Below, piece by piece: positions 38,435 through 59,109 of a DNA stretch of 59,494 nucleotides. This stretch comes from an uncultured bacterium. GTDB lineage: Bacteria > Fidelibacterota > Marinisomatia > Marinisomatales > UBA1611. A model generated the notes under the pieces. It made no database searches. It had not been told where the DNA came from and saw only the letters and a list, made by a program, of their open reading frames with translations. The stretch lies in contig CAZEER010000002.1 in NCBI GenBank assembly GCA_964511215.1, positions 1-59,494 of the forward strand, in the 5' to 3' direction. Position 1 is the stretch's first letter. Every line of letters begins with the position of its first letter. Position numbers and translations under genes: made by a program.

Positions 38435-40459
38435 ATGACTTTAGCTATTATTCAAGCCCGAGTTGGTTCCAGTCGTTTATGGGGAAAAGTATTAAAAAAA
38501 ATTGATGGTATTTCATTAATTGAGTTACTATTAAAACGCTTATCACAATCAGAAAAAGTTGATAAAATTATTGTGGCTACCAGCATAAATGTTGAAAATG
38601 ATTTATTATCAAAACTAGTAAAAGATCTAGGCTTTGATGTTTTTAGAGGTAGTGAGGAGGATGTCCTTGATAGATATTTTAATGCTGCAAAATTATTCAA
38701 TCCTTCAGCAATCATAAGAATAACGGGAGATTGCCCATTAATCGATCATTCAATAGTTGATTCAATGATTGAATGTTATTATGAAAATAAAGTTGATTAC
38801 TTAAGTAATATTGATCCTCCAACATACCCAGATGGTTTGGATATAGAAATATTTTCGTTTAAAGCTCTGAAAGTTGCATTTAATAATGCAACAAAACCAT
38901 ATGAAAGAGAACATGTAACCCCTTATATTCGAAAAAGTAAATCTCTAAAATTGTTGAACTTTTTTTATGAATCAGATCATTCACAAAAGAGGTGGACTGT
39001 TGATGATATGGACGACTTTGAGGTTGTGGAAAAAATTTTTAAACATTTTAATTATAATTATAATGTTTCTTGGACAGATGTATTACAACTTAGTACAACT
39101 AACCCTGAATATTTTTTTAAAAATAAATACTCACTTAGAAATCAAGGTTCAAAAATGAGTAAAGGAGAAAAGCTATATAAAAGGGCAAAAAAGATTATAC
39201 CTGGAGGCACAAGTTTATTGTCTAAGCGTCCTGAAATGTTTCTTCCTGATTTTTGGCCGACTTATTTTAGTAAAGCTAAGGGTGTTAATGTGTGGGATTT
39301 AGATTCTAAGAAATATATTGATATGTCTATAATGGGTATTGGTACTAACATTCTTGGGTATGGACATCTGGGTGTGGACAATGCAGTAAGGGAAGTAATA
39401 AATAAGGGTAACATGTCAACATTAAATTGTCCAGAAGAGGTCGAATTAGCAGAACGTTTAATTGCATTACACCCCTGGGCTGATATGGTGAGGTTCGCAC
39501 GTACAGGAGGAGAGGCTAATGCAATGGCTATTAGGATTGCTAGAGCAGCGTCAGGGAAAGACAAAGTTGCGGTATGTGGGTACCATGGATGGCATGACTG
39601 GTACCTAGCAGCAAACCTCAATGAAGATAATAACTTGGATGGACATTTGATTCCAGGGTTAATACCAAATGGTGTTCCTAAAGCCTTACAAGGTTCAGTA
39701 GTCCCATTTGAATATAATAACTTTAATAACTTAGAGGAAATTACGAATACAAATGATATTGGAATCATTAAAATGGAAGTGTCACGAACTATTGGTCCTG
39801 AGGCCGGCTTTTTGGAATCTGTTCGTAAACTAGCTGATGAAAAGAATATTATATTGATTTTTGACGAATGCACATCAGGTTTTAGAGAAACATTTGGTGG
39901 ATTACATAAAAAATTTAATGTAAATCCAGATATCATGATGTTGGGTAAAACGCTTGGTAATGGCTATGCAATTACTACTGTTTTAGGGAGAGAGGAAATA
40001 ATGAAGTACGCCCAAGATACCTTTATTAGTAGCACCTTTTGGACAGAGCGAATTGGTCCAGTAGCAGCACTACAGTCTCTTAAAGAAATGGAAAAAGAGA
40101 AATCTTGGGAAAAAATTACAAAAACTGGTGAGGTAATTGTTAAAAAATGGAAAGTACTTGCAAATAAATACCAACTCCCAATAACCATCACTGGTTTACC
40201 AGCTTTATCCTCTTTTACCTTCCCATTGAAAAATTGGCTTAAATATAAAACTTTTATAACCCAAGAAATGTTGAATAAAGGCTATTTAGCATCAAATAGT
40301 ATATATACCTCAATTGAGCATAAAAATGATATTATTGTTGAATATTTTAGTAACTTGGATCCTGTTTTTGGAATGATTGCGGATTGTGAAAATGGTCGAG
40401 ATATTGATGAATTATTAAAAGGGCCAATATGCCATGAGGGCTTTAAGAGGTTAAATTGA
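38435..40459 (+). CDS. fusion: SpsF/PseF-like cytidylyltransferase domain (aa 1-240) + class-III aminotransferase, glutamate-1-semialdehyde aminomutase-like (aa 241-674)
   Basis: LAIIQARVGSSRLWGKVL and ITGDCPLID (CTP_transf_3 type). Then IPGGTSLLSKRP, TGGEANAMAIRIARA, DECTSGFR, MLGKTLGNG (PLP lysine). An in-frame ATG at 39155 marks the junction, with no stop between the domains. Confidence 0.75.
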   Translation: MTLAIIQARVGSSRLWGKVLKKIDGISLIELLLKRLSQSEKVDKIIVATSINVENDLLSKLVKDLGFDVFRGSEEDVLDRYFNAAKLFNPSAIIRITGDCPLIDHSIVDSMIECYYENKVDYLSNIDPPTYPDGLDIEIFSFKALKVAFNNATKPYEREHVTPYIRKSKSLKLLNFFYESDHSQKRWTVDDMDDFEVVEKIFKHFNYNYNVSWTDVLQLSTTNPEYFFKNKYSLRNQGSKMSKGEKLYKRAKKIIPGGTSLLSKRPEMFLPDFWPTYFSKAKGVNVWDLDSKKYIDMSIMGIGTNILGYGHLGVDNAVREVINKGNMSTLNCPEEVELAERLIALHPWADMVRFARTGGEANAMAIRIARAASGKDKVAVCGYHGWHDWYLAANLNEDNNLDGHLIPGLIPNGVPKALQGSVVPFEYNNFNNLEEITNTNDIGIIKMEVSRTIGPEAGFLESVRKLADEKNIILIFDECTSGFRETFGGLHKKFNVNPDIMMLGKTLGNGYAITTVLGREEIMKYAQDTFISSTFWTERIGPVAALQSLKEMEKEKSWEKITKTGEVIVKKWKVLANKYQLPITITGLPALSSFTFPLKNWLKYKTFITQEMLNKGYLASNSIYTSIEHKNDIIVEYFSNLDPVFGMIADCENGRDIDELLKGPICHEGFKRLN

Positions 40460-40662
40460 AAAAAAGAAAAAATAAAGATTTGCAATATTATCTAGATATT
40501 ATTGATCAAATTGAAAAGGTGAGGACAAAAAATAATGTCAATTGGATGGATCTACTCCGACTCGCATTTATTCATGCTCCAGATGAAGCAAAATTATTAA
40601 TGAAGAAAATTGATCATGACGATAATCAGATTTCGAGATTAGTAAAAAAGCTTTCAGAATAA
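40456..40662 (+). CDS. hypothetical small protein (68 aa)
   Basis: TTGA overlap with the upstream gene and a tight fit between neighbours. No family recognised. Confidence 0.4.
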   Translation: MKKRKNKDLQYYLDIIDQIEKVRTKNNVNWMDLLRLAFIHAPDEAKLLMKKIDHDDNQISRLVKKLSE

Positions 40663-40675
40663 TTTTATAGAATTA

Positions 40676-41167
40676 ATGATTAAGACTGATAATTCTTTTA
40701 AGCTCAGAAATGTATATAACTCAGATAAAAATCAATTATTTGAGTGGGCGAATGATATTGAAACAAGAAAGTGGTCTTTCCATTCTGAGGCTATTACGGT
40801 ATTAGAACATAAAAAATGGTTTAATAGTAAATATATTGATAAAAATGTGATATTATGGATATTTGAATACGAAAACACTTCTTCAGGGTTAGTGAGGTTA
40901 GAAAAATACAATGGGAAAGTTATTCTTCACTATCAAATAGCTCCAGAAATGAGAGGGAAAAAATTGGCGAGTGTTATGCTAGGGGAAGCATTAAAAAAAT
41001 TAAAAAAATGCTGGTTGGAAAATGAAGTGTATGCATTTACATATCCTGAGAATTTAGCATCAATTAAATCTTTGAAAAAAGCTGGCTTCAATCTCTTTAG
41101 TGATGATGGAGGCAAACATTGTTATCTTTATAGATGGAGTAACAAGATTAAAATAGAACAAAAATGA
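40676..41167 (+). CDS. pseH: GNAT N-acetyltransferase, PseH-like
   Basis: LFEWANDIETRKWSF...EHKKWF N-terminal pattern and MRGKKLASVML motif A. Position directly before pseI. Confidence 0.6.
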   Translation: MIKTDNSFKLRNVYNSDKNQLFEWANDIETRKWSFHSEAITVLEHKKWFNSKYIDKNVILWIFEYENTSSGLVRLEKYNGKVILHYQIAPEMRGKKLASVMLGEALKKLKKCWLENEVYAFTYPENLASIKSLKKAGFNLFSDDGGKHCYLYRWSNKIKIEQK

Positions 41168-42210
41168 TACACATTGGTAATCAAAAAATAGGTCTAGATC
41201 AGAAACCTTTTGTGATAGCGGAAATGTCAGGGAATCATAATCAATCATTGGAAAAAGCTTTGAAAATTACCGAGGCAATAGCTAGGTGTGGAGCAGATGC
41301 AATCAAACTTCAAACTTATACTGCAGATACATTGACGCTTGATATAAAAGAGAATGAATTTCTAATAAAAGATGAAAAAAGTATTTGGAAAGGAAAGGCG
41401 CTATATGATTTATATAAGGGTGCCTACACACCGTGGGATTGGCATGAGCCTATTATGCATAAAGCAAATGATCTTGGTCTAATGTGTTTTAGTACTCCAT
41501 TTGATGAAACAGCAGTAGATTTTCTTGAGGATTTAAACGTTCCGGCCTACAAAATTTCATCTTTTGAAAATATACATTTACCCTTAATTAAAAAAGTTGT
41601 TTCAACAGGAAAACCTATTATTATATCAACTGGTATGGCTAGTCTTTCTGATATTGAAGAAATAACAAATATTTTAAAATATGGTTCAATTGATAACTTT
41701 GTATTATTGAAATGTTCAAGTACATATCCTGCTGCCACTAAAGACAGCAATGTAATTACTATACCCTATATGCGAAAACTATTTTCATGTGAGGTTGGTT
41801 TATCAGATCATACTTTAGGTCTTGGTGCTTCTATAGCTGCTATAGCTCATGGTGCGACTGTAATTGAAAAACACTTTACCTTATCAAGAGATGATGGAGG
41901 TGTAGATGCTGCTTTTTCAATGGAGCCTGAAGAAATGAAACAATTAATTACTGAATTAAATCGTGCTTGGGAGTCTCTTGGTGATGTTAATTTTGGTCCA
42001 ACAGAAAATGAAAAAAACTCACTGCAGTTTCGACGATCCTTGTACATTTCAGAGGATATAAAAAATGGTGAACTACTAAATGAAAAAAACCTAAGAATAA
42101 TTAGGCCGGGTTTAGGTCTCCATCCAAAGTTTTTTGATATTATTTTGGGTATGAAGGTAAACCGTGATGTGAAGAAAGGAACCCCAGTTAGTTGGGATTT
42201 AATCAGGTAA
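41164..42210 (+). CDS. pseI: pseudaminic acid synthase (NeuB family with C-terminal SAF domain)
   Basis: PFVIAEMSGNHNQSLEKA, IKLQTYTADTLT, YKISSFE, GLSDHTLG, IEKHFTLSR. ATGA overlap. Confidence 0.85.
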   Translation: MIHIGNQKIGLDQKPFVIAEMSGNHNQSLEKALKITEAIARCGADAIKLQTYTADTLTLDIKENEFLIKDEKSIWKGKALYDLYKGAYTPWDWHEPIMHKANDLGLMCFSTPFDETAVDFLEDLNVPAYKISSFENIHLPLIKKVVSTGKPIIISTGMASLSDIEEITNILKYGSIDNFVLLKCSSTYPAATKDSNVITIPYMRKLFSCEVGLSDHTLGLGASIAAIAHGATVIEKHFTLSRDDGGVDAAFSMEPEEMKQLITELNRAWESLGDVNFGPTENEKNSLQFRRSLYISEDIKNGELLNEKNLRIIRPGLGLHPKFFDIILGMKVNRDVKKGTPVSWDLIR

Positions 42211-49340: not shown

Positions 49341-50561
49341 GTGAGGGAGACCTTAAAATATATTCAAGATATATTACCAGAATTAAAAATATATTCTGTT
49401 TCTTCTGGAGCTCAAGCTTTTGACTGGACTGTCCCGAATGAGTGGATTATTCATGATGCTTTCATTGCAGATGAGTCCGGTAAAAGAATCGTCGATTATC
49501 AGAAACATAATCTGCACATTTTGGGTTACTCTGAACCGGTGGACAAGTGGCTAACATTGGATAAACTTGACTCACATTTGTTTTCACTTCCGGATCAGCC
49601 CAATGGGATTCCTTATGTAACATCCTATTATGAAAGACGATGGGGGTTTTGCTTGACCCACAATCAACGAAAAACTCTACAACCTGGAAACTACCATGTT
49701 GTGATAAATTCAGATTTGAAACCCGGGATAATGAATTACGGGGAGTTGATACTTCCTGGAGATTCAGTTAAGGAAGTCTTTCTTTCAACCTACATCTGCC
49801 ATCCATCCATGGCCAACAATGAACTTTCCGGGCCTGTTGTAACCACAGCATTGGCGCGGTGGTTATCATCTTTAGAAAGGAGACGTTATACCTACCGAAT
49901 TGTCTTCATACCTGAAACGATTGGATCTATTGTCTACCTGAGCAGAAACCTTGATCATCTGAAACAGCATGTCATTGCCGGTTTCAATATTACCTGTATT
50001 GGAGACGATCGCTGTTATTCCTACCTACCATCGCGGGATGGCAACACGTTCTCAGATAGAGCTGCTTTGCATGTACTAATGCATATTGATCCAGAATTTA
50101 ATCGTTACACCTGGTTGGATCGGGGCAGTGACGAACGCCAGTACTGTGCACCGGGGATAGATCTTCCTATTGCTACAATCATGCGTAGTAAATACGGAGA
50201 GTACCCTGAATACCATACTTCTTTGGATGATTTGAGCCTGGTAACATCATCAGGACTGGAAGGAGGTTTTACAGCGCTGAAGAAAACACTCGAGATCATA
50301 GAGAAAAATGTCTGTCCAAAAACTACAGTATTGGGAGAACCACAGTTGGGTAAACGAGGACTTTACCCAAAGCTTAGCACCAAAACCTCTGGAGAACAAG
50401 TTCGCGCCATGATGAATCTGATTTCTTATTGTGATGGTCAGAATAGCCTTTTGGAAATTGCTGAATTGATCGAAGAACCTTTTTGGGAACTAGCCCCGAT
50501 AGTGGAAAAACTGGTTGATAATGGCCTTTTATCGGTTAATACAACCAAAGGAGAAAGTTGA
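49341..50561 (+). CDS. DUF2172/DUF4910 aminopeptidase-like (M28-fold) protein with a C-terminal winged helix; N-terminus extends upstream of any canonical start
   Basis: FDWTVPNEW, HNLHILGYSEP, CHPSMANNELSGP, and C-terminal GQNSLLEIAELIEEP wHTH. The conserved LFPICRSITGPG is encoded in frame at 49305-49340, before the GTG at 49341. In-frame stop at 49173. Confidence 0.65.
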   Translation: MRETLKYIQDILPELKIYSVSSGAQAFDWTVPNEWIIHDAFIADESGKRIVDYQKHNLHILGYSEPVDKWLTLDKLDSHLFSLPDQPNGIPYVTSYYERRWGFCLTHNQRKTLQPGNYHVVINSDLKPGIMNYGELILPGDSVKEVFLSTYICHPSMANNELSGPVVTTALARWLSSLERRRYTYRIVFIPETIGSIVYLSRNLDHLKQHVIAGFNITCIGDDRCYSYLPSRDGNTFSDRAALHVLMHIDPEFNRYTWLDRGSDERQYCAPGIDLPIATIMRSKYGEYPEYHTSLDDLSLVTSSGLEGGFTALKKTLEIIEKNVCPKTTVLGEPQLGKRGLYPKLSTKTSGEQVRAMMNLISYCDGQNSLLEIAELIEEPFWELAPIVEKLVDNGLLSVNTTKGES

Positions 50562-50715: not shown

Positions 50716-51615
50716 TTGAAAATCCTAATTACTGGTTCCAATGGAATGCTCGGAAGTACGCTATGCTATTATTATCATAATAAATATGATATTTTTGCAT
50801 TTCATAGGGATAATGTTTTTTATTCATTAGGAAAAGATTACAGTATTGATTTGACTAATTTTTCTAAAGTAGATCAATACCTTGATCAAATAGAACCGGA
50901 TGTAATTATTCACTGTGCAGGTCTAACAAACGTTGATAAATGTGAAATTAGTCCTAAAGTTTCTTTTGATGTTAATGTCAGAATTACTGAAAACATTGCA
51001 AGAAAATGTTCAAATAAGACACAATTTATTTACATATCAAGTGACCAAGTTTACGGAAACTGTAAAGATAATAAAGAGAAGAATACTAAAATCCAGCCAA
51101 TTAATCAGTATGGGAGATCGAAATTAGCTGGCGAAAAAATTGTTTCAGAGTTATGTGAAAAACATATAATAATTAGAACAAATATCTTTGGTTGGAACTT
51201 TAACCCCAATAAAACTAGCTCGGCAGAATGGATTTATAATTCTCTAAATAACAAGCAAGAGATTACTCTTTACTGTGATTATACTTTTTCTCCAATATAC
51301 ACTTTTAATCTAGCAGCAATAATAATAAAGCTCATAAAAATTAGATTCTATGGTATAATTAATATCGGTTCCCCAAAACCATGTTCAAAATATGAATTTG
51401 GTATTGTTCTTGCTAGGGAATTTGGATTAGATCAATCTTTAATAAAAAAAGGTTTTGTTTCTGAAAATTCTTTTGTTGCACAAAGACCCAAAAACCTTGA
51501 GCTTAACACTGAAAAGCTTTCAGCTTTAAAAATTAGATCTCCTAACTATAATCTTTCAATAAAACATTTTTCCGCAAATAGAAGCGACGGTAAAATTTTA
51601 AAACATGTTAAATAA
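50716..51615 (+). CDS. RmlD-like SDR (dTDP-4-dehydrorhamnose reductase family)
   Basis: TTG 50716 gives LKILITGSNGMLGS. IIHCAGLTNVDKCE, YISSDQVYG, YGRSKLAGE. The ORF opens at GTG 50659, but those 19 aa look non-native. Confidence 0.75.
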   Translation: MKILITGSNGMLGSTLCYYYHNKYDIFAFHRDNVFYSLGKDYSIDLTNFSKVDQYLDQIEPDVIIHCAGLTNVDKCEISPKVSFDVNVRITENIARKCSNKTQFIYISSDQVYGNCKDNKEKNTKIQPINQYGRSKLAGEKIVSELCEKHIIIRTNIFGWNFNPNKTSSAEWIYNSLNNKQEITLYCDYTFSPIYTFNLAAIIIKLIKIRFYGIINIGSPKPCSKYEFGIVLAREFGLDQSLIKKGFVSENSFVAQRPKNLELNTEKLSALKIRSPNYNLSIKHFSANRSDGKILKHVK

Positions 51616-53191
51616 GATTTATAAAAGAGAAAATTTTAAAAATAGGCTTGCTGTACTTCGTGGAGCTAAAATTTTAAAAAATGAGAACAATCCTTTTTAT
51701 GTTGTAGATAGCGTAAGTGCCCTTACTGATATTAATTTGAATATTGATGATAAAATTTTTTCTTCAAACCTAGTTGGATCACATCAATCAATAATTGAAG
51801 TACTACTTAGGCAAATTTTATTAAAAAATTATTCATTATACTGTAATAGAATTATGAGATCCATCGGGAATGGAAAGCCAGTAGTTATTCCAATACCTAA
51901 AGTTTGGCAAAATCATTTTTCTAGAAATGGTTTAGTTTTTAATAAAAATCTTTGTTTGGCATTTCTTTTTTTTATTTCGGTAAAAGATTTATTTAAAGGA
52001 TTGATTCAATCTATACTTTATATAACACCTTTTAATGATTTTGTGAGTATTAAATGCCCTTATGTGATGTTTTTTGATCAAGAAGAAAAAAATTTGCCAA
52101 TTGCAGGAATCAAGAGTAAAAATAATTTAGTTTCCTGGTATAGAAAATCAAAAATTAACAAACCTCATATTAAAAAGTTTTTAATACATGGAAAGTTTAA
52201 TAAAAATTATGTTCCTCCAAATGAATTAATCGTAACTCAGTTTATTTTTCCCAGATTAAGTAGTTTCTACAAATGTTTAGTGTTTTCCTACAAAAATATT
52301 ATTGCTTTTTTAACAGCGATTTTAGGGTTAATAAATGGTAATTGGTGGGCCGGGTTTCTTTATAAAGAGAGTATATTATTGAACTATCTGAGTACTGTAG
52401 AAAAAGATGAATTAGCTGAGGATTATTATTTTTCTAATTCTACGTGGTATTATAAACCTTTATGGACAAATGAGATTGAGAATAAAGGTATCTCAATCAT
52501 TATGTATAATTATTCAATAAATATGGCAAAATTTTGGAGATGGGATAAAGTAGAGCCAGATACATATGGATGTAATACAATGACTTGGAAAAACATAGTA
52601 ACCTGGGATGCCAAACAGAATGAATTCTTTAAAAAATATTGTCCCGAAGCTAAATATTATGTATTGGGTTCAATAGATTTTAAGAATTATGATGTTATTA
52701 AAATTGAAGAAAAAACAAAAAAACGCCTTGTGATTTTTGATGTAACACCATTTAGACCATTATTTTATACTTCTTTGGGGTATGCTATTCCACCATATTA
52801 TAGTGAAAAAATTAATTTAGACTTTTTATCAACATTATTATATGTTTTTGATGATAGTAAATGGGAGATTATTTTTAAGCAAAAGAAAAAATTAATTAGT
52901 CAATGGGTTTCCCCGGGTTTTATTATAAGACAAAAAAAATTAATATCTTCATCTGTTACTGAAGTTGATCAGAATATTTCTGCCAAAGCAATAATTGAAA
53001 ATGCTAATGCTGTAATTAGTATGCCTTTTACATCAACATCATATCAGGCGGCAGAGCTTAATATACCATCTGCTTACTTTGATGTGTCAGGAATGATTCA
53101 GATAAATAATTTTTATGGAATAACTACAATAAAAAATCAAAATGAATTGGTACAATGGAAAGATTGGTTAGATCTAAAGAATAATATTTGA
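51605..53191 (+). CDS. putative polysaccharide-biosynthesis transferase with a PFTS motif (LIC12162-like family as I remember it)
   Basis: The C-terminal region VISMPFTSTSYQAAELNIP contains the literal PFTS motif. 528 aa, GT-B-like C-terminal half. Confidence 0.5.
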   Translation: MLNKIYKRENFKNRLAVLRGAKILKNENNPFYVVDSVSALTDINLNIDDKIFSSNLVGSHQSIIEVLLRQILLKNYSLYCNRIMRSIGNGKPVVIPIPKVWQNHFSRNGLVFNKNLCLAFLFFISVKDLFKGLIQSILYITPFNDFVSIKCPYVMFFDQEEKNLPIAGIKSKNNLVSWYRKSKINKPHIKKFLIHGKFNKNYVPPNELIVTQFIFPRLSSFYKCLVFSYKNIIAFLTAILGLINGNWWAGFLYKESILLNYLSTVEKDELAEDYYFSNSTWYYKPLWTNEIENKGISIIMYNYSINMAKFWRWDKVEPDTYGCNTMTWKNIVTWDAKQNEFFKKYCPEAKYYVLGSIDFKNYDVIKIEEKTKKRLVIFDVTPFRPLFYTSLGYAIPPYYSEKINLDFLSTLLYVFDDSKWEIIFKQKKKLISQWVSPGFIIRQKKLISSSVTEVDQNISAKAIIENANAVISMPFTSTSYQAAELNIPSAYFDVSGMIQINNFYGITTIKNQNELVQWKDWLDLKNNI

Positions 53192-53403: not shown

Positions 53404-55011
53404 ATGAAAGTAACTCTATTGGATTGTACACTACGTGATGGTGGCTATTATAATAAATGGGATTTTGATGAAAAGATAGTTAAACATTACCTGAAAGCTA
53501 TGAGTGCATCTTGTGTCGATTTTGTAGAATTAGGGTTTCGTTTCCAATCTAAGAATACCTTTTTCGGGCCCTATGCATACACTACTGATAATTTTATTAA
53601 TAGTTTAGAACTACCACCTGGGCCAAAATATGGTGTTATGATTAATGGTAAAGATTTTATTACCTCGGAGGATAAAAAAAACTCGTTAATCAATAGTAGT
53701 TTTCAAAAAAAGGAAAAATCGCCCATTTCCTTAATTAGAATAGCAATGAATTTTGATTCTGTTCTTACTTCAAGATCCATTGTAGAATGTCTCAAGGATA
53801 AGGGGTATTTAATTGGCTTAAATATGATGCAATCCCATGGTAAGATTCACGAAGAATATGTAAATGTAGCAAAGGCTCTATCATCATGGGATTCTATTGA
53901 TGTTTTATTTTTTGCCGATTCATTGGGTAATATGACCCCTAAGGATATCAAAAATATATGTTTATCAATCAGAGACGGTTGGGATGGTGAATTAGGTATT
54001 CACACTCATAATAATAAAACTTATGCTTTAATTAATTCAATCACTGCAATCGAAAATGGAGTAAGTTGGGTTGATGGGACTATAACAGGGATGGGTCGTG
54101 GTGCAGGTAATGCACCAACAGAGAGTTTGATTTTAGAAATGTCTAATTCAGGCTACCATAATGGTAATGTGAAAAAGATTCAATCAACTATAGAAGATTT
54201 CACAATATTGAAAAATAAATATAAGTGGGGTCCAAATCTCTATTATCATTATTCTGCTAATCATGAAATACATCCTTCATTTGTTCAAACTCTTCTTGAG
54301 GGTAGAAGATATGGTGCAAATCAGATTATGGGTGCACTAGCTTTCCTTGCAGATAAAGATTCATCTTCATTTAGTGCAAATGCATTGCGCAAAGCTATTT
54401 ATGGAAATCACTCACATTATAATGGTGATTGGGATGCAAGTGGATGGTTAAGTGGAGAAACTGTTCTTATAGTAGGGGCGGGTCCCTCAGTGAAAAAATA
54501 CAAAGATTACATTCTGCAATACATTGAAAAACAATCTCCGACTGTTTTTCATCTTAATATAAATCCTCATTTGCCAAGTACAAATGTAAAAGCATCAATT
54601 GTATGTAATGAAACTCGAATTTTGCTTGATGCATCGCGATACAAATATTTAAATCATCCAATCATTATGCCCAAAAAGAGAATAGGCATGTTAATACAAG
54701 ATGAGTTAAAAGAATTAGATATTCTCGATTATGGACTTATTCTAGAATCAGAAGCTTTCAAAATTAAATCAAATTTTTGTATACTGGGTTGGCCATTAGC
54801 TATAGCGTATGCATTATCAATTATCACTATTGGTGAGCCAAAAGCTATCCATCTAGTTGGTTTTGATGGTTATGATGCTGATGATCCTAGACAAAAACAA
54901 ATGAATGATATATTAAAAAAATATAAGAATACAAAAGAGAGTGTTCCGTTATTATCTTTAACACCCACAAATTATAGAATAAAACAAGGCTCTATATTTT
55001 CAGTAATATAA
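53404..55011 (+). CDS. HMGL-like (pyruvate carboxyltransferase/4-hydroxy-2-oxovalerate aldolase-type) domain fused to a C-terminal domain of unknown function (DUF115/Maf-like?)
   Basis: TLLDCTLRDGGY, GIHTHNN, GMGRGAGNAPTE (TIM-barrel aldolase). C-terminal 200 aa carry VLIVGAGPSVKKY and HLVGFDGYD. Confidence 0.7.
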   Translation: MKVTLLDCTLRDGGYYNKWDFDEKIVKHYLKAMSASCVDFVELGFRFQSKNTFFGPYAYTTDNFINSLELPPGPKYGVMINGKDFITSEDKKNSLINSSFQKKEKSPISLIRIAMNFDSVLTSRSIVECLKDKGYLIGLNMMQSHGKIHEEYVNVAKALSSWDSIDVLFFADSLGNMTPKDIKNICLSIRDGWDGELGIHTHNNKTYALINSITAIENGVSWVDGTITGMGRGAGNAPTESLILEMSNSGYHNGNVKKIQSTIEDFTILKNKYKWGPNLYYHYSANHEIHPSFVQTLLEGRRYGANQIMGALAFLADKDSSSFSANALRKAIYGNHSHYNGDWDASGWLSGETVLIVGAGPSVKKYKDYILQYIEKQSPTVFHLNINPHLPSTNVKASIVCNETRILLDASRYKYLNHPIIMPKKRIGMLIQDELKELDILDYGLILESEAFKIKSNFCILGWPLAIAYALSIITIGEPKAIHLVGFDGYDADDPRQKQMNDILKKYKNTKESVPLLSLTPTNYRIKQGSIFSVI

Positions 55012-55015
55012 TTCT

Positions 55016-55753
55016 ATGGATAAATATAAGGATCTAAAACATCTTTGTTTTGATAAAGATGGAGTTTTAATTGATGTCCATGCGTATTGGTCTCATACAA
55101 CTAAAATTAGAGCAGACTTTTTTAAAAATAAATTTCATTTAACAGATCTTCAAACTTCTAAATTGATTGAAGCCATGGGCATTAATACAACAACAGAAAA
55201 GATAAAAAGATCTGGACCGATAGGCTATAAGCCAAGAGAAAAAGTTATAGATTCTCTTAGAAAAAAATTAGAAGAATTTTTGATCAAAACAGATTATCCA
55301 GACATTGTAGAAGATTTTAAAAATATAGATGAATATCAGCAAAGAAAGGGCGATTTTAAGATATTACTTATAGAAGGAGTTAGAGAATTTCTAGAAAAAA
55401 ATAAAAACAAGTTTTCAATGAGTGTTTTTACATCAGATAGGAAAAAGAATGCTGAATTATCTCTAAAAAATTGTGATATCCTTAATTATTTTGATATTGT
55501 TTTAGGTGGAGATGATGTTCAATCATCTAAACCGAACCCCGAGGGTATTTTAATCGCATGCGATAAATTAGATTGTGATACTAGCCATACTGCATATTTA
55601 TCTGATACTTCGAGTGATTTACTTATGGCAAAGCAGGCTAATTTACCTGTCAAAATTGGTCTGCTTACTGGACTTGGTAATAAAAAACAGCTAAAGATGT
55701 ATGGGGATTTAATTTGTGATAATTTAACGGAGCTTAATAATTATTTTTTGTGA
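55016..55753 (+). CDS. HAD-superfamily hydrolase (subfamily IA, phosphatase-like)
   Basis: CFDKDGVLIDV (DxDG), FTSDRK, SSKPNPEG, LSDTSSDL. Confidence 0.8.
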   Translation: MDKYKDLKHLCFDKDGVLIDVHAYWSHTTKIRADFFKNKFHLTDLQTSKLIEAMGINTTTEKIKRSGPIGYKPREKVIDSLRKKLEEFLIKTDYPDIVEDFKNIDEYQQRKGDFKILLIEGVREFLEKNKNKFSMSVFTSDRKKNAELSLKNCDILNYFDIVLGGDDVQSSKPNPEGILIACDKLDCDTSHTAYLSDTSSDLLMAKQANLPVKIGLLTGLGNKKQLKMYGDLICDNLTELNNYFL

Positions 55754-56592
55754 TGGATTTATACAATGCAACAGTAGAAATACATAGAAATAACAAAATA
55801 TCAACTATCTTTAGAGTTTATCCAGATTTTCCGATTAGAAAGTTTATACCAGGTCAATATGGAAGCCTTGGATTAATAAATGATAAAGGAGATAGGTTAA
55901 TTAAAAGAGCGTATTCAATTTCTTCATCCATCATTGATTTATCTACTAATAAACTACAGGATCAGAGGAGAATAAAATATTTAGAGTTTTATATTAATCG
56001 TGTAAAAGAGCACAATAAAAGAGAACAGATTACACCTAAATTATTTAAATTGAAAACTGGAGATAGATTATTTTGTGGGGAAAAAATTATTGGCAATTAT
56101 ATTTACCAGGATCATAAAGAATGGAAAAATATTTTCTTGATTAGCACTCATACAGGCGAGTCTCCAAATAACTCAATTATAAACAAATTATTATTAGATG
56201 GTAAAGATATTAATATCTGTAATTTAAATGTTGGTAAAATTTTTTCATCTATTTATAGTGAGGAGCATAAATTTTTAGAAAAAAAAATAAATAATTATAA
56301 ATTCATACAATACGAGGATAATACTGAAAACTATTTAGAGTTAACTTGCTATATTGAAGGGTTTTTAAATAATGATACTTCGATAACTAAAGCAATTGGT
56401 TTTGAATTTAATAAAGAAAATACTTTGATTATGTTATGTGGGGATCCAAAAATGATTGGTGCCCCAATTAAGAAAGGGAATTGGGAATATGTATATCCGA
56501 GAAATGGCTTAATAAAACTATTGCAGAAGAGCTCTTTAGAATTAACAACAAGATTTAAATTAGGAAGTATAGTGTATGAATCATACTGGTAG
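55750..56592 (+). CDS. ferredoxin/flavodoxin-NADP+ reductase-like flavoprotein (Fpr type)
   Basis: RAYSISS FAD motif, MLCGDPKMI, C-terminal ...VYESYW (aromatic terminal residue as in Fpr). NADP-loop HTGESP is atypical. Confidence 0.65.
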   Translation: MMDLYNATVEIHRNNKISTIFRVYPDFPIRKFIPGQYGSLGLINDKGDRLIKRAYSISSSIIDLSTNKLQDQRRIKYLEFYINRVKEHNKREQITPKLFKLKTGDRLFCGEKIIGNYIYQDHKEWKNIFLISTHTGESPNNSIINKLLLDGKDINICNLNVGKIFSSIYSEEHKFLEKKINNYKFIQYEDNTENYLELTCYIEGFLNNDTSITKAIGFEFNKENTLIMLCGDPKMIGAPIKKGNWEYVYPRNGLIKLLQKSSLELTTRFKLGSIVYESYW

Positions 56593-57595
56593 TAATATGC
56601 AAGATAGGTTTGAACTACAAAAATCAATTATGGAGGATGGTAAGCTTTTTAAATTAATTTGTGGCGCTGGGAATGAGGATGCTGAAGAAGTTTATAAACT
56701 TTGTTTAGTCTATACATTGGCAGGGACTAATGCGATTGACATGTCTGCTAATGTTGAAGTAGTAAGATCTGCAGTGGAGGGGGTAAATGCTGCAGAAGAG
56801 CTTTTAGAAAAATATAATTTAAAAAACTACGTTCGTCCATATTTGACGGTTTCAATTGGGATGCCTGGAGATCACCATGTTAGAAAAGCTAAGATACTAA
56901 ATGATAAATGTACAGAGTGTGACGCGTGTATTCCTGTATGTCCAACGGATGCTATTCCAGATATTTTAAATATAATTGAAAGTAGGTGTATTGGTTGTGG
57001 TGCATGTGGAGTTGCATGTCAAGATGATGCAATTGGCTATAGTCATAAAGAAATAGAAATTGAATCTGTGCTTGAAGACTGTGTTAACTTAGGCGTAGAA
57101 AACATTGAATTGCATGCTTCTGTTATTGATGATAAACCAGTGTTAAATGAATGGAATATTGTAAATAAAATAAATCCTAATGGCTTTAATAGTGTTTGCA
57201 TTGATAGAGGTTATCTCTCTAATCATGCTCTCCAAGTTAGAATAAAGAATATGTTGGAAATCTGCGAAGATCGGATGATCGTTCAAGCAGATGGAATTCC
57301 TATGTCGGGTGGTTCAGATGATTTTAGAACTACACTTCAAGCCGTAGCATGTGCTGATATTGTTGATAAATTTTCCTTACCTGTGCATATACTTTTATCT
57401 GGAGGGACGAACAGTCAGAGTATCAAACTTTCACAAGCATGCAGTGTACCATTTGCAGGTGTCTCAATTGGAACATATGCTAGGCATTTAGTTTATCCAT
57501 TTATTAATAATGCTAATTTTCCTAATCAAGAAATTTTAGATAATGCTGTTGGTGCAGCAAAACAACTAGTTGATACTTGTCTAAATCCGTCATGA
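56576..57595 (+). CDS. 4Fe-4S dicluster protein, LdpA-like architecture
   Basis: LFKLICGAGNED...VYTLAGTNAIDMSAN, CTECDACIPVCP and CIGCGACGVACQ, then VQADGIPMSGG and LLSGGTN, collinear with cyanobacterial LdpA as I recall it. Alternative start at ATG 56597. Confidence 0.6.
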   Translation: MNHTGSNMQDRFELQKSIMEDGKLFKLICGAGNEDAEEVYKLCLVYTLAGTNAIDMSANVEVVRSAVEGVNAAEELLEKYNLKNYVRPYLTVSIGMPGDHHVRKAKILNDKCTECDACIPVCPTDAIPDILNIIESRCIGCGACGVACQDDAIGYSHKEIEIESVLEDCVNLGVENIELHASVIDDKPVLNEWNIVNKINPNGFNSVCIDRGYLSNHALQVRIKNMLEICEDRMIVQADGIPMSGGSDDFRTTLQAVACADIVDKFSLPVHILLSGGTNSQSIKLSQACSVPFAGVSIGTYARHLVYPFINNANFPNQEILDNAVGAAKQLVDTCLNPS

Positions 57596-58356
57596 ATAAG
57601 GGTTTAAGGCAGAAAATAAAAATGAATCAGCCTGTTATTGGGACATGGAATACTATGGACTCGGTACTGTCAACTGAAGTTTTAGCAAGTAGTGGAATTG
57701 ATTTTTTGATTATTGATTTTGAACATGGGCCATTTCAAATTGCCAATGTACACAATTTTATTAATGCATCCTTGCTATATAATTGCTCTCCTATTGTAAG
57801 AGTACCAAAAAACACTCAATGGATGTCGCTTCAAGCGCTTGATCAAGGAGCAAATGGAATCATGATGCCTGGAATAAAAAATAAGCGTAGTGCTAAAAAA
57901 TTTATTGATCAAATAAAATATGCACCCGTTGGAAAAAGAGGATATTCACCTTTCACAAAGTCTGGAGGATTCTCAAACGAAAATTTAAATTATAAAAATG
58001 AAGCAAATGAATTAACCACATCAATTATTATTATAGAAGATATGGATGGGTTAAATAATATTGATGAAATATTAGAAGTTGATGCCCTAGATGTAATTTA
58101 CTTTGGTGCTTATGATTTATCACAAGTTTTAGGCTTTCCTGGTGACGTTTACAATAACAGGTTGCTCGACTTACTTAAGCCTGCTATTGAAAAAGTAACA
58201 AAAATAGGGAAATTTGCTGGAGGTTTTGTACCTCAAAATAAAGATGAATTAATATTTGTAAAAGAGCTAGGTATCAATTTTATTACATATGGAGTAGATA
58301 CTAATATTTTACATAAATCATTAAAAGCAATTAATGATTGGTTTAAATTTAATTAA
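57592..58356 (+). CDS. HpcH/HpaI-family class II (pyruvate) aldolase
   Basis: IGTWNTMDS...GIDFLIIDFEHGP, RVP, GIMMPG, FGAYDLS. ATG 57592 forms an ATGA overlap with the upstream stop. The ORF also opens at TTG 57577. Confidence 0.8.
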   Translation: MNKGLRQKIKMNQPVIGTWNTMDSVLSTEVLASSGIDFLIIDFEHGPFQIANVHNFINASLLYNCSPIVRVPKNTQWMSLQALDQGANGIMMPGIKNKRSAKKFIDQIKYAPVGKRGYSPFTKSGGFSNENLNYKNEANELTTSIIIIEDMDGLNNIDEILEVDALDVIYFGAYDLSQVLGFPGDVYNNRLLDLLKPAIEKVTKIGKFAGGFVPQNKDELIFVKELGINFITYGVDTNILHKSLKAINDWFKFN

Positions 58357-58371
58357 TTTGAATAATTATTA

Positions 58372-59109
58372 TTGAAAGTAGTAGGTCTAATTCCTTCTAG
58401 GTTAAAATCATCGCGATTGCCAGGAAAACCACTTAAAAATATTTGTGGTCTACCAATGATTGTACATGTATATAAAAGATGTCTTTTATCAGAGCTATTA
58501 GATGACGTGTTTGTTGTAACTGATAGTAACCAAATTAAATCTGCTGTTGAGAGTTTTGATGGTGAAGTTATTATGTCATCAAAAGAGCATCAAACAGGGA
58601 CAGATAGGATTGCTGAGGCAGCAAAAAACATTTCAGCCGATATTATTGTTAATATACAAGGGGATGAAGCTTTAGTTGTCCCGAGTCATATTGATAAGGT
58701 AACAAAAGCATTAATTAACGATCCAAAGTTGAATATTGCGATACTTGTTAATACTTTTTATAAGAAAGATTCTCTTTCTGATATAAAAGTAGTATTAAAT
58801 AATAGATCAGAGGTTTTGTATCTATCACGTAGTGATATCCCAAATGATTATCATAATAAAAACCAAGAAATGTTAAAAGCATATCACATTGTTCCTTTCA
58901 GAAAAAAATTCCTCTTAGAGTATACTAAAATGCCAAAAAGTTTTTTAGAATTAATAGAAAATAATGAATATTTGAGAATACTTGAAAATGGATATAACAT
59001 TAAAGCAGTAAAAGTCAATAGTTCTGCCATTAGCGTAGATACGTATGATGATTTGGAAATTGTAAGAAAATTAATGATAGCAGATAAGTATTTCAATTTA
59101 TACTCATAA
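58372..59109 (+). CDS. kdsB: 3-deoxy-manno-octulosonate cytidylyltransferase-like (CMP-ulosonic acid synthetase)
   Basis: IPSRLKSSRLPGKPL..ICGLPMIVHVYKR, HQTGTDRIAEA, IVNIQGDEALV; collinear with KdsB. TTG start. Confidence 0.75.
   Translation: MKVVGLIPSRLKSSRLPGKPLKNICGLPMIVHVYKRCLLSELLDDVFVVTDSNQIKSAVESFDGEVIMSSKEHQTGTDRIAEAAKNISADIIVNIQGDEALVVPSHIDKVTKALINDPKLNIAILVNTFYKKDSLSDIKVVLNNRSEVLYLSRSDIPNDYHNKNQEMLKAYHIVPFRKKFLLEYTKMPKSFLELIENNEYLRILENGYNIKAVKVNSSAISVDTYDDLEIVRKLMIADKYFNLYS

What the first reader, a model, noticed from the sequence alone, without database searches (positions are those of the whole stretch)
55750..57595. Fpr-type reductase plus LdpA-like 4Fe-4S protein as a dedicated electron-transfer pair in a sugar pathway
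A 280-aa FNR/Fpr-like flavoprotein (RAYSISS, C-terminal YESYW) overlaps the start of a 339-aa protein. That protein has two CxxCxxCxxxCP clusters and the flanking KLICGAGNED / ADGIPMSGG / LSGGTN blocks that I associate with cyanobacterial LdpA, a redox-sensing clock-input protein. LdpA-like proteins outside cyanobacteria are functionally unassigned. The pairing recalls the E1/E3 system of 3,6-dideoxyhexose synthesis, where an FNR-like reductase feeds electrons through Fe-S to a deoxygenation step. It therefore points to a reductive (deoxygenation or radical) step on the ulosonic or sugar intermediate. The NADP-loop of the reductase (HTGESP instead of GTGIAP-like) is also atypical.
Basis: partly seen in the sequence, partly recalled or inferred. 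Interest (0 to 1): 0.6.

Follow-up and report, generated by a model that had tools for sequence, protein, structure and literature searches.

The report
Reductase paired with LdpA-like Fe-S enzyme
Two overlapping genes in a surface-sugar gene cluster encode a small NADPH-type flavoprotein and an iron-sulfur barrel protein related to the cyanobacterial clock protein LdpA; together they probably carry out a redox step in an uncharacterised pathway to a CMP-activated sugar acid, which suggests that the LdpA family consists of enzymes and is not confined to cyanobacteria.

Summary
A 279/280-aa Fpr-type flavoprotein gene ends 17 nt inside a 339-aa gene. That gene passes Pfam LdpA_C (51.6 bits, cut-off 22.2) and carries eight ferredoxin-type cysteines.

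The LdpA-like protein is a fixed member of a cassette: DRE-TIM/Maf-like fusion, LdpA-like, HAD phosphatase, HpcH aldolase and KdsB-like cytidylyltransferase. Of 42 loci with long flanks, 31 carry all four partner genes, in bacteria and archaea. The reductase is an add-on. It occurs in one clade of the LdpA-like tree (SH-aLRT 99), always directly upstream, with the same 17-nt overlap in 9 of 10 cases, and once fused to the HAD gene.

The barrel is homologous to Ycf23/DUF561 (hhalign 95.7%) and has invariant polar residues at every strand end, so it looks like an enzyme rather than a simple carrier. Most of these residues persist in true clock LdpA (about 29% identity). Each of 60 cyanobacterial-phylum genomes holds one full-length family member, of one type or the other.

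The chemistry is unknown; a reductive step on a phosphorylated precursor is my best guess. The E1/E3 comparison is an analogy only. The scan has met this cassette before in other genomes; no characterisation turned up in the papers searched.

The parts
53404..55011 (+). Cassette gene 1. DRE-TIM (DmpG/HMGL-like) metal-dependent 2-oxo-acid lyase domain (residues 1-~320), fused to a Maf/MptE-like nucleotide-binding domain (residues ~328-535).
   Evidence: Pfam HMGL-like, 89.8 bits. PDB 3dxi at E 3.6e-51. The model has pLDDT 91.9. VIA-align: 3dxi Z 37.5 over residues 3-315; Maf glycosyltransferase 5mu5 Z 14.2, rmsd 3.0, 183 residues aligned over 328-535. A weak MptE-like HMM hit, E 0.013. An HMGL-like homologue lies near the LdpA-like gene in most sampled loci.
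55016..55753 (+). Cassette gene 2. HAD-IA family phosphatase.
   Evidence: Pfam HAD_2, 89.4 bits. Conserved next to the LdpA-like gene. Fused to the FNR-like protein in locus L004 as a 534-aa product.
55750..56592 (+). Fpr-type FNR-like flavoprotein, 280 aa from GTG 55750 or 279 aa from the likelier ATG 55753. FAD motif R53-x-Y55-S56. Nucleotide loop T135-G136-E137 in place of GTG..P. C-terminal E277-x-Y279-W280. No Fe-S motif.
   Evidence: NCBIfam PRK10926, 51.6 bits (cut-off 390). Pfam NAD_binding_1, 18.6 bits (cut-off 22). PDB FNRs 6rr3 and 1fdr, full length, E 1.7e-10 to 1.3e-7. Subfamily alignment A2. Found only in the one clade.
56576..56592 (+). 17-nt overlap between the end of the FNR-like gene (TAG 56590-56592) and the LdpA-like start (ATG 56576). 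This indicates translational coupling.
   Evidence: Sequence. The same 17-nt overlap occurs in 9 of the 10 contexts examined (window, L002, L004, L006, L009, L010, L011, the JGI contig and L109; not L008).
56576..57595 (+). LdpA-family Fe-S protein, 339 aa. A Ycf23/DUF561-like (beta/alpha)8 barrel with invariant residues at every strand end: K26, C29, D55, S93, D99, H101, R103, K104, E178, H180, C208, D210, R211, Q237, D239, S275-G-G-T-N279, G299-T300 and R303.
   Evidence: PF12617, 51.6 bits. NF045992, 157 bits, below the 450 cut-off. Model pLDDT 83.5 with eight strands. Invariant columns. hhalign to DUF561: 95.7%, E 9e-9, 202 columns.
56885..57043 (+). Inserted 2x[4Fe-4S] ferredoxin domain (residues ~104-156), placed between strand 3 and helix 3 of the barrel. 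Cysteines C112, C115, C118, C122 and C138, C141, C144, C148.
   Evidence: Pfam Fer4, two stretches. PDB profile hits cover this part only. All eight cysteines are invariant in 80 family members and in 12 clock-type LdpA proteins. Clade-specific substitutions cluster at residues 143-163.
57577..58356 (+). Cassette gene 5. HpcH/HpaI class II pyruvate aldolase. The likely start is ATG 57592, overlapping the LdpA-like TGA stop as ATGA.
   Evidence: Pfam HpcH_HpaI, 91.7 bits; TIGR02311, 149.9 bits, below its cut-off. Sequence. Conserved in the cassette.
58372..59109 (+). Cassette gene 6. KdsB-like cytidylyltransferase. It is the third CTP_transf_3 gene of this genome and is separate from the housekeeping kdsA/kdsB on contig C21.
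   Evidence: Pfam CTP_transf_3, 161.5 bits; PRK13368, 257.5 bits (cut-off 255). Own-genome searches.

Best explanation
The two genes encode a two-component NAD(P)H-dependent oxidoreductase that serves a conserved cassette for a CMP-activated 3-deoxy-2-ulosonic-type acid.

The flavoprotein is Fpr-type, binds FAD and has no Fe-S centre of its own. It takes a hydride from NAD(P)H and feeds single electrons to the di-[4Fe-4S] ferredoxin domain. That domain is inserted into the Ycf23-like TIM barrel of the LdpA-family protein. The barrel is the catalytic part. Its strand ends carry an invariant polar set (K26, C29, D55, D99, H101, R103, K104, E178, H180, C208, D210, R211, Q237, D239, R303) and SGGTN/GT loops of the phosphate-binding type.

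I propose that the barrel reduces a phosphorylated sugar or keto-acid precursor, either by reductive loss of a hydroxyl or by saturation of an enone. HAD then removes the phosphate. The HpcH aldolase adds pyruvate. The KdsB-like enzyme makes the CMP ester. Transferases then use it, perhaps including the Maf-like domain fused to the DRE-TIM protein.

The LdpA-like enzyme is the fixed part of the cassette. The reductase is a clade-specific private electron donor; elsewhere the cell's ferredoxin pool would presumably serve.

Shown here: gene identities, the pairing, cassette conservation, barrel homology and residue conservation.

Inferred: direction of electron flow, substrate, order of steps and reaction type.
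For: Pairing:
- The FNR-like gene is present only in one clade of the LdpA-like tree: 8 loci plus the window, SH-aLRT 99, a single change on the tree. A profile search found it nowhere else in the 80 loci.
- It always lies directly upstream, with the same 17-nt overlap in 9 of 10 contexts.
- At least 30 FNR-subfamily clusters share their exact longest-contig length with LdpA-like clusters.
- In locus L004 it is fused to the HAD gene.
- Complex prediction gave weak support. The score was 0.36 and the best of 3 controls 0.00. The mark was reached by 58 of 80 solved complexes and 2 of 110 mismatched pairs, but at 0.60 or under by only 7 of those 80 and by both mismatches. Runs agree in at least 83% of contacts and the partner's pLDDT is at least 89. 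My own alignments were used and ligands rode along, so these counts hold only roughly.

Flavoprotein:
- Full-length similarity to solved bacterial FNR/Fpr structures.
- Invariant RxYS, CGDP..IGAP and C-terminal E-x-Y-W motifs, and no invariant cysteine.

Enzyme rather than carrier:
- TIM barrel model with pLDDT 83.5.
- Invariant polar residues at all eight strand ends across bacteria and archaea.
- Barrel homologous to DUF561/Ycf23.

Pathway context:
- 31 of 42 loci with at least 6 kb on both flanks carry the HMGL-like, HAD, HpcH and KdsB-like genes.
- The host genome has separate housekeeping kdsA and kdsB genes.
- The window is a polysaccharide locus that also holds NeuB, aminotransferases, methyltransferases and an RmlD-like gene.
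Against: - No biochemical data exist for any cassette member.
- The barrel has no solved relative by sequence. Fold searches give only tied generic TIM-barrel hits at Z 14-16, so no reaction type can be read off.
- Neither gathering cut-off for the FNR-like protein is reached (Pfam 18.6 against 22; NCBIfam 51.6 against 390). Its nucleotide loop carries a Glu, so NAD(P)H use is assumed, not shown.
- Most cassettes lack the reductase, so it is not essential to the chemistry.
- A radical SAM gene lies about 490 bp downstream of the kdsB-like gene. Radical SAM genes lie near 6 of the 10 reductase-clade contexts examined. The reductase could therefore serve them instead, or as well.
- The only experimentally studied family member, clock LdpA, is described as a redox sensor (PMC13421787).
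Confidence: 0.55

Rival explanations
1. The pair is an electron-supply module. The Fpr-like protein plus the ferredoxin domain of the LdpA-like protein reduce the [4Fe-4S] clusters (and cobalamin) of radical SAM enzymes in the same locus. This would parallel Fpr with flavodoxin or ferredoxin in E. coli. On this reading the barrel is a scaffold rather than a catalyst.
For: - B12-binding radical SAM genes lie within 10 kb in 5 distinct reductase-clade loci (L002, L004, L008, L010, L011). That compares with 20 of 76 loci without the reductase.
- In this genome a 349-aa radical SAM gene starts about 490 bp after the kdsB-like gene, just outside the window.
- An earlier scan note (e1-3306336) proposed this reading for another genome.
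Against: - The LdpA-like gene is a core cassette member in many loci with no radical SAM gene nearby: 56 of 76 loci without the reductase.
- L006, L009, the JGI contig and L109 have the reductase but no radical SAM gene in the available flanks.
- The radical SAM types differ between loci, and the window's own type has no homologue in the other reductase-clade loci. This genome has no close homologue of the B12 type.
- A mere carrier would not need an invariant polar constellation at every barrel strand end.
Confidence: 0.15
2. The module has the same architecture but runs in the opposite direction. The LdpA-like barrel oxidises its substrate, for example an aldehyde or alcohol function of a sugar phosphate. 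Electrons leave through the two clusters to the flavoprotein and on to NAD(P)+.
For: - FNR-type enzymes are reversible (established knowledge of the family).
- Nothing in the sequence fixes the direction.
- Sugar-acid pathways commonly contain oxidation steps.
Against: - Fpr-type (bacterial subclass II) enzymes normally work from NADPH towards ferredoxin or flavodoxin (established knowledge).
- Many cassette hosts are anaerobes rich in reduced ferredoxin and lack any reductase gene in the cassette. That fits electron input better than output.
Confidence: 0.15
3. The LdpA-like protein is a redox sensor or regulator, as is described for clock LdpA. It would tune the activity or stability of the pathway enzymes to the cell's redox state, and the flavoprotein would set its redox poise.
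For: The only function reported for the family is redox sensing through [4Fe-4S] clusters (PMC6378743, PMC13421787).
Against: - It is conserved in operons of archaea and non-photosynthetic bacteria, among genes that encode only sugar-pathway enzymes.
- It is translationally coupled with enzyme genes.
- The pattern of invariant residues is catalytic-looking.
Confidence: 0.07

Closest known systems
LdpA (light-dependent period A) of Synechococcus elongatus; NCBIfam NF045992; Pfam PF12617/PF25160
   Same: The architecture is the same over the full length: a barrel with an inserted eight-cysteine ferredoxin domain. Conserved in both types are K26, C29, D55, S93, D99, H101, R103, K104, E178, H180, W193, C208, D210, Q237, D239, the GGTN loop and R303. 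PF12617 is passed.
   Different: Identity is only about 29%. The window protein scores 157 bits against the equivalog cut-off of 450. The first cluster motif has different spacing. N33, E34, G95, M96, G98, H157, C169, E175, S206, R211, S215, R222, G246, Q255, K265 and S275 differ. The genomic context is a sugar-acid cassette, and it is unrelated to the clock.
Ycf23 / DUF561 (PF04481), a cyanobacterial and plastid protein of unknown function
   Same: The barrels are homologous: hhalign 95.7%, E 9e-9 over 202 columns. Shared elements include K-[LV]-[IV]-x-G-x-x-N-x-D after strand 1, D55, E178 and Q237.
   Different: Ycf23 has no ferredoxin insert and lacks C29, H101, H180 and C208. Its function is also unknown, so it offers no mechanistic lead.
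E. coli Fpr (flavodoxin/ferredoxin-NADP+ reductase, 1fdr) and Brucella FNR (6rr3)
   Same: Full-length alignment, the RxYS FAD motif, the CG(D/N)P motif and a C-terminal aromatic Tyr-Trp.
   Different: Similarity is weak (E 1e-7 to 1e-10) and falls below both curated cut-offs. The nucleotide loop reads TGE[SA] instead of GTG..P. The gene is dedicated to one partner gene and is not a housekeeping enzyme.
E3 (AscD) / E1 (AscC, DdhC) of CDP-3,6-dideoxyhexose synthesis
   Same: The logic is the same: an FNR-type flavoprotein passes NAD(P)H electrons through Fe-S to a sugar-tailoring enzyme.
   Different: E3 carries its own plant-type [2Fe-2S] domain, and E1 is a PMP-dependent DegT-fold enzyme acting on a CDP-sugar (established knowledge). 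Here the reductase has no cluster and the partner is a TIM barrel with two [4Fe-4S] clusters. The activated product is a CMP acid, not a CDP hexose.
CMP-Kdo pathway (KdsD, KdsA, KdsC, KdsB)
   Same: Both have a precursor-tailoring enzyme, a C3 addition that gives a 3-deoxy-2-ulosonate, a phosphatase and a KdsB-type cytidylyltransferase.
   Different: There is no PEP-dependent KdsA/NeuB-type synthase in the cassette; pyruvate-type class II lyases (HpcH, DRE-TIM) take its place. An Fe-S redox enzyme is present, which has no counterpart in the Kdo pathway. The genome keeps separate kdsA and kdsB genes.
Dihydropyrimidine dehydrogenase and class 1B dihydroorotate dehydrogenase (PyrD/PyrK)
   Same: The design is the same: NAD(P)H, then an FNR-like flavoprotein, then Fe-S, then a TIM-barrel active site with a catalytic cysteine.
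   Different: There is no sequence relation to the DHO_dh barrel (hhalign probability 0.4%). FMN binding has not been shown for the LdpA-like protein.

Membership tests
LdpA family in the broad sense (Pfam PF12617 LdpA_C) | LdpA_C domain scoring above Pfam's gathering cut-off | tested here: met
   51.6 bits against 22.2, E 1.1e-13, residues 172-332; 54 bits when the C-terminal half is searched alone.
LdpA family in the broad sense | Two [4Fe-4S]-type cysteine motifs inserted in the barrel | tested here: met
   C112/115/118/122 and C138/141/144/148. Fer4 gives two stretches at 44.7 bits. PF25160 LdpA_Fe-S-bd scores 26.6 bits, just under its 27.6 cut-off.
Circadian clock protein LdpA (NCBIfam NF045992, equivalog) | Score at or above the curated equivalog cut-off of 450 bits | tested here: not met
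   157.3 bits. True clock-type proteins score 484-630 bits and are about 29% identical to the window protein.
Circadian clock protein LdpA | Role in a Kai/CikA clock input pathway | not testable with these tools
   The family occurs in archaea and many non-cyanobacterial bacteria. A clock role for the window protein cannot be tested here.
Fpr-type ferredoxin/flavodoxin-NADP+ reductase | FAD-binding RxYS motif and a C-terminal aromatic residue stacking on the flavin | tested here: met
   R53-A-Y55-S56 and E277-S-Y279-W280 are invariant in 8 subfamily members.
Fpr-type ferredoxin/flavodoxin-NADP+ reductase | Canonical GxGxxP NAD(P)H loop and family-level HMM cut-offs | tested here: not met
   The loop reads T135-G136-E137-[SA]. 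Pfam NAD_binding_1 scores 18.6 against 22. PRK10926 scores 51.6 against 390. It is a divergent member of the FNR superfamily and not an Fpr orthologue.
E3 (AscD)-type reductase of the E1/E3 system | A [2Fe-2S] ferredoxin domain fused to the FNR module | tested here: not met
   The 280-aa protein has no extra domain and no invariant cysteine.
E1 (AscC/DdhC)-type dehydrase | PMP-dependent DegT/DnrJ/EryC1 fold | tested here: not met
   There is no such Pfam hit. The model is a TIM barrel with a ferredoxin insert.
Ycf23 / DUF561 | Homologous barrel | tested here: met
   hhalign probability 95.7%, E 9e-9, 202 columns. The single-sequence Pfam hit is weak only (E 0.0077 and 0.16), so this is a sister family and not a member.
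Class II fructose-bisphosphate aldolase | Sequence or structure relation beyond the generic TIM fold | tested here: inconclusive
   It gives the best Foldseek hits (E 2e-7, TM about 0.5). It is tied with many other TIM barrels in VIA-align at Z 14-16. hhalign probability is 0.2%.
FMN-dependent DHODH/DPD-type barrel | Sequence relation to the DHO_dh family; FMN binding | tested here: inconclusive
   hhalign probability 0.4%. FMN barrels (OYE, Dus, dienoyl-CoA reductase) appear among the tied VIA-align hits. Cofactor binding cannot be tested here.

The most novel reading that the evidence does not exclude
The LdpA family is a family of Fe-S enzymes whose ancestral setting is a sugar-acid cassette shared by bacteria and archaea, and it is not a cyanobacteria-specific redox sensor. 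Picocyanobacteria and non-photosynthetic members of the phylum carry the general (cassette-like) type as their only family member. Other cyanobacteria carry the diverged clock type, and none of the sampled genomes carries both. Clock LdpA would then be a metabolic enzyme, or a recently retired one. Its effect on CikA and KaiA could run through a metabolite or through an enzyme-like redox cycle. Biochemistry on a cassette member could reveal how LdpA works.
Probability: 0.3. Interest if true: 0.8.

Novelty: new variant of a known kind. Interest (0 to 1): 0.6.

Why it matters
First, it defines a testable two-protein redox unit, a flavoprotein plus an Fe-S barrel. This unit sits inside a widespread and uncharacterised route to a CMP-activated acidic sugar in surface polysaccharides of bacteria and archaea. 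The route has no KdsA/NeuB-type synthase.

Second, it bears on a long-open question in circadian biology. Published surveys state that LdpA is confined to cyanobacteria (PMC5520375), and a 2026 review says its mechanism is unknown (PMC13421787). Here, close relatives with the same conserved barrel residues are operon-embedded enzymes in many phyla. The protein present in Prochlorococcus and related picocyanobacteria belongs to this general type. Working out the reaction of the cassette enzyme would give a concrete biochemical hypothesis for LdpA.

Tried and rejected
- A profile of the whole LdpA-like family against PDB sequences hit only the ferredoxin part. A profile of the barrel's C-terminal half hit nothing (best E 0.81).
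- Foldseek and VIA-align on the model gave only tied generic TIM-barrel matches: class II aldolases, KDPG aldolase, NeuB, the MetH homocysteine domain, IspG and OYE, all at Z 14-16. No superfamily could be assigned.
- hhalign against DHO_dh and class II FBA alignments built from relatives' genomes was negative.
- Pfam searches of the two barrel halves at E <= 10 added nothing beyond DUF561.
- A third [4Fe-4S] cluster on C29, C169 and C208 was considered and set aside. C169 lies in helix 162-171, which by TIM-barrel topology should be away from the strand ends (my inference; no coordinates were available). It is Val or Ile in clock-type LdpA.
- The idea that the pair serves B12-radical SAM enzymes does not fit this genome. 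The 59-kb window has no such gene, and the genome has only 23-26% identical generic radical SAM hits. A different radical SAM gene does lie just downstream, so this reading is kept as a rival.
- tblastn of the LdpA-like protein against GenBank phages and PLSDB plasmids found nothing.
- The organism could not be named: cluster look-ups returned no names.
- The primary LdpA papers (PMC556408, PMC142860) are not held.
- Literature searches found no paper on the cassette.
Full report
**Observation.** The window has about 31% G+C and all its genes lie on the + strand. At 55750-56592 there is a 280-aa ORF. Its more likely start is ATG 55753, which overlaps the TGA of the upstream HAD gene and gives 279 aa. 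At 56576-57595 there is a 339-aa ORF whose ATG lies 17 nt before the TAG of the first gene. The downstream HpcH gene probably starts at ATG 57592, overlapping the LdpA-like TGA as ATGA. HAD, reductase, LdpA-like and aldolase genes are therefore translationally coupled. The one correction is that the second cluster motif ends in CQ rather than CP.

**Identity of the two proteins.**
- The 339-aa protein passes Pfam LdpA_C (51.6 bits against 22.2) and has two Fer4 stretches.
- Against NCBI's clock-LdpA equivalog model it aligns over its full length, but scores 157 bits against a cut-off of 450.
- The 280-aa protein is a divergent FNR. It scores 51.6 bits against the Fpr model PRK10926 (cut-off 390) and 18.6 bits against Pfam NAD_binding_1 (cut-off 22).
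- It nevertheless aligns over its full length with solved bacterial FNRs 6rr3 and 1fdr at E 1e-10 to 1e-7.
- Eight subfamily members keep K-R-x-Y-S, CGDP..IGAP and the C-terminal E-x-Y-W.
- All eight replace the usual GTG..P loop with T-G-E-[SA], and there is no invariant cysteine.
- The protein is therefore a flavoprotein without an Fe-S centre of its own.

**Context.** Homologues of the LdpA-like protein are numerous: 3241 at E <= 0.001. Three distant contexts (Elusimicrobia, an ENA contig, Omnitrophota) showed the same neighbours.

A scan of one genome per species gave 320 relatives, of which 80 loci were kept. They span Elusimicrobiota, Omnitrophota, Planctomycetota, Bdellovibrionota, Campylobacterota, Thermodesulfobacteriota, Chloroflexota, Actinomycetota, methanogens and other archaea, and Cyanobacteriota.

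By tblastn and blastp with the window's proteins, most loci carry an HMGL-like gene, a HAD gene, an HpcH gene and a KdsB-like gene next to the LdpA-like gene. Among 42 loci with at least 6 kb on both sides:
- 31 carry all four partner genes.
- 5 carry none.

The usual order is HMGL-like, LdpA-like, HAD, HpcH, KdsB-like.

**The reductase is an add-on.**
- It is found in only 8 loci plus the window.
- A profile built from it finds nothing else in the 80 loci.
- On a maximum-likelihood tree of the LdpA-like proteins these rows form one clade (SH-aLRT 99, one change).
- The clade has its own gene order: HMGL-like, HAD, FNR-like, LdpA-like, HpcH, KdsB-like.

Seen from the reductase side, the subfamily comprises about 90 clusters above 330 bits. 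Scores then drop to about 225-260 bits, mostly ordinary planctomycete FNRs at about 32% identity. Two further members with long contigs both sit between the HAD and LdpA-like genes with the same 17-nt overlap. At least 30 members share their exact longest-contig length with LdpA-like clusters. In L004 the HAD and FNR-like parts are one 534-aa protein.

Complex prediction with two [4Fe-4S] clusters and FAD riding along gave weak support:
- The score was 0.36 and the best of 3 controls 0.00.
- The mark was reached by 58 of 80 solved complexes and 2 of 110 mismatched pairs.
- At 0.60 or under it was reached by only 7 of those 80 and by both mismatches.
- Runs agree in at least 83% of contacts, and the partner's pLDDT is at least 89.
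- The counts hold only roughly, because my own alignments and ligands were used.

Residues that are fixed in the reductase clade but differ elsewhere cluster around the second cluster motif (143, 146, 149, 150, 160, 163). This could be a docking surface, but that is inference only.

**The barrel.** The AlphaFold model (pLDDT 83.5) is a (beta/alpha)8 barrel. The ferredoxin domain is inserted after strand 3 and is modelled with low confidence.

Thirty-four cassette proteins share 85 invariant columns. The same residues are invariant or nearly so in all 80 sampled family members. They sit at the C-terminal ends of all eight strands: K26, C29, D55, S93, D99, H101, E178, H180, C208, D210, Q237, D239, S275-GGTN and G299-T300. 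This is the usual position of a TIM-barrel active site, and the GG-T loops on strands 7 and 8 resemble standard phosphate-binding loops (established knowledge of the fold).

Fold searches give no specific superfamily, and PDB sequence searches find nothing for the barrel. Local hhalign gives these results:
- The barrel is homologous to Ycf23/DUF561: 95.7%, E 9e-9, 202 columns.
- It shows no sequence relation to DHO_dh (0.4%) or class II FBP aldolase (0.2%).

Ycf23 lacks the insert and lacks C29, H101, H180 and C208.

**Relation to clock LdpA.**
- In 61 genomes of the cyanobacterial phylum, 60 have exactly one full-length family member.
- 20 score above the clock equivalog cut-off (484-630 bits).
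- About 40 score 100-177 bits.
- None of the genomes has both types.
- The proteins of Cyanobium, Synechococcus UW140, Prochlorococcus and Sericytochromatia are of the low-scoring general type and are the only family member in their genomes.
- Four picocyanobacterial genomes have no orthologue of the cassette's HMGL-like protein, so there the protein stands alone. Some Prochlorococcus single-cell genomes do carry it in a variant cassette.
- Clock-type proteins are about 29% identical to the window protein.
- They keep K26, C29, D55, S93, D99, H101, R103, K104, all eight cluster cysteines, E178, H180, W193, C208, D210, Q237, D239, GGTN and R303.
- They differ at N33, E34, G95, M96, G98, H157, C169, E175, S206, R211, S215, R222, G246, Q255, K265 and S275.

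The literature states that LdpA is exclusive to cyanobacteria (PMC5520375) and that its mechanism is unknown (PMC13421787). The data here contradict the first statement at the family level.

**The rest of the cassette and the locus.**
- The HMGL-like protein is a fusion. Residues 3-315 match the DRE-TIM putative aldolase 3dxi (Z 37.5). Residues 328-535 match the Maf glycosyltransferase 5mu5 (Z 14.2, rmsd 3.0, 183 residues aligned).
- Maf proteins are thought to transfer CMP-activated nonulosonic acids (established knowledge). This domain may therefore bind the CMP product or a nucleotide.
- The genome has separate kdsA and kdsB genes on another contig and a NeuA-like domain in the window. The cassette's cytidylyltransferase is thus a third, specialised copy.
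- The window also holds NeuB, GNAT, aminotransferase, 2-hydroxyacid dehydrogenase, acyl-AMP ligase, methyltransferase and RmlD-like genes.
- The contig continues beyond the window with a 349-aa radical SAM gene about 490 bp after the kdsB-like gene. An acyl-AMP ligase, an aldehyde dehydrogenase, a 2OG oxygenase, a deacetylase, a GT2 and an EpsG-like polymerase follow.
- None of 40 relatives of the host (same genus to same order) has an LdpA-like gene at E <= 1e-20. The cassette therefore appears to be an accessory trait in this lineage.

**Mechanism.** The best-supported reading is a two-component oxidoreductase. NAD(P)H reduces FAD on the Fpr-like protein. Electrons pass to the two [4Fe-4S] clusters and on to the barrel active site. 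There a precursor is transformed, probably a phosphorylated one, given the phosphate-type loops and the adjacent HAD phosphatase. The HpcH aldolase then builds the 3-deoxy-2-ulosonate with pyruvate, and the KdsB-like enzyme activates it.

A low-potential Fe-S wire suggests a demanding reduction, either reductive dehydroxylation or enone saturation with C29 or C208 as proton donor. Nothing here fixes this. Where the reductase is absent, the cellular ferredoxin pool would be the donor.

Three rival readings remain:
- Electron supply to radical SAM enzymes. This has some co-occurrence support but fails to explain the core cassette membership or the barrel conservation.
- The same module running oxidatively.
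- A sensor role like the one ascribed to clock LdpA.

**Comparison and novelty.** The E1/E3 system is a functional analogy only. No defining feature of E3 or E1 is met.

Earlier follow-ups of this scan reached the same general picture on other genomes: an uncharacterised cassette in which the LdpA family probably includes enzymes.
- the clade-restricted, overlap-coupled reductase;
- the Ycf23 homology;
- the Maf-like domain;
- the one-type-per-genome pattern in the cyanobacterial phylum.

I found no paper characterising any cassette member.

Noticed in passing
window 53404-55011 (residues 328-535 of the product): The C-terminal third of the DRE-TIM 'aldolase' matches the Maf flagellin glycosyltransferase 5mu5 (Z 14.2, rmsd 3.0, 183 residues aligned) and weakly matches MptE-like (E 0.013). 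The protein may therefore be an aldolase-transferase or aldolase-kinase fusion and not a plain aldolase.
   Followed up: partly
L108:598-1647 (contig C2 59597-60646, just outside the window): A 349-aa radical SAM protein (CxxxCxxC at residues 16-23; PF04055, 53.8 bits; only weak NCBIfam hits) follows the kdsB-like gene after about 490 bp. It has no homologue in the other reductase-clade loci.
   Followed up: partly
L090-L101 and the genomes: In 61 genomes of the cyanobacterial phylum, the clock-type LdpA (over 450 bits) and the general LdpA-like type (100-177 bits) never co-occur. 60 of the 61 genomes have exactly one full-length family member.
   Followed up: partly
L110-L129: Ycf23/DUF561, found in 28 of 31 genomes of the cyanobacterial phylum, is the nearest sequence relative of the LdpA barrel. 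It lacks the ferredoxin insert and the Cys/His residues.
   Followed up: partly
L004:6413-8017: HAD phosphatase and FNR-like reductase are fused into one 534-aa protein in a metagenomic contig.
   Followed up: partly
L061:9980-15828 (Prochlorococcus single-cell genome): A variant cassette. The LdpA-like gene is followed by a 279-aa protein with no Pfam hit, a divergent KdsB-like gene and, on the other strand, two HpcH-like genes and a HAD gene. There is no HMGL-like gene.
   Followed up: partly
window 38435-42210: A separate nonulosonic-acid module lies in the same locus: a 674-aa fusion of a CTP_transf_3 (NeuA-like) domain with a class III aminotransferase, a GNAT, and NeuB with a SAF domain.
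   Followed up: partly
window 1-59494 and L108: Nearly every ORF of at least 120 aa listed over about 76 kb of contig lies on the + strand, and GC skew is positive in every 2-kb window of the window. This is an unusually long co-directional polysaccharide region.
   Followed up: no
window 49341-50561: A 406-aa DUF4910/DUF2172/HTH_47 protein of unknown role sits among the sugar-tailoring genes. It has no NCBIfam match.
   Followed up: no
window 51605-53191 and L108:6032-7858: A PFTS-motif polysaccharide protein (TIGR04417, 142 bits) and a weak TIGR04326-like protein flank the cassette. LIC12162-family proteins (PF27859) appear next to the cassette in L004 and L109. All are candidate transferases for the CMP-acid.
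   Followed up: no
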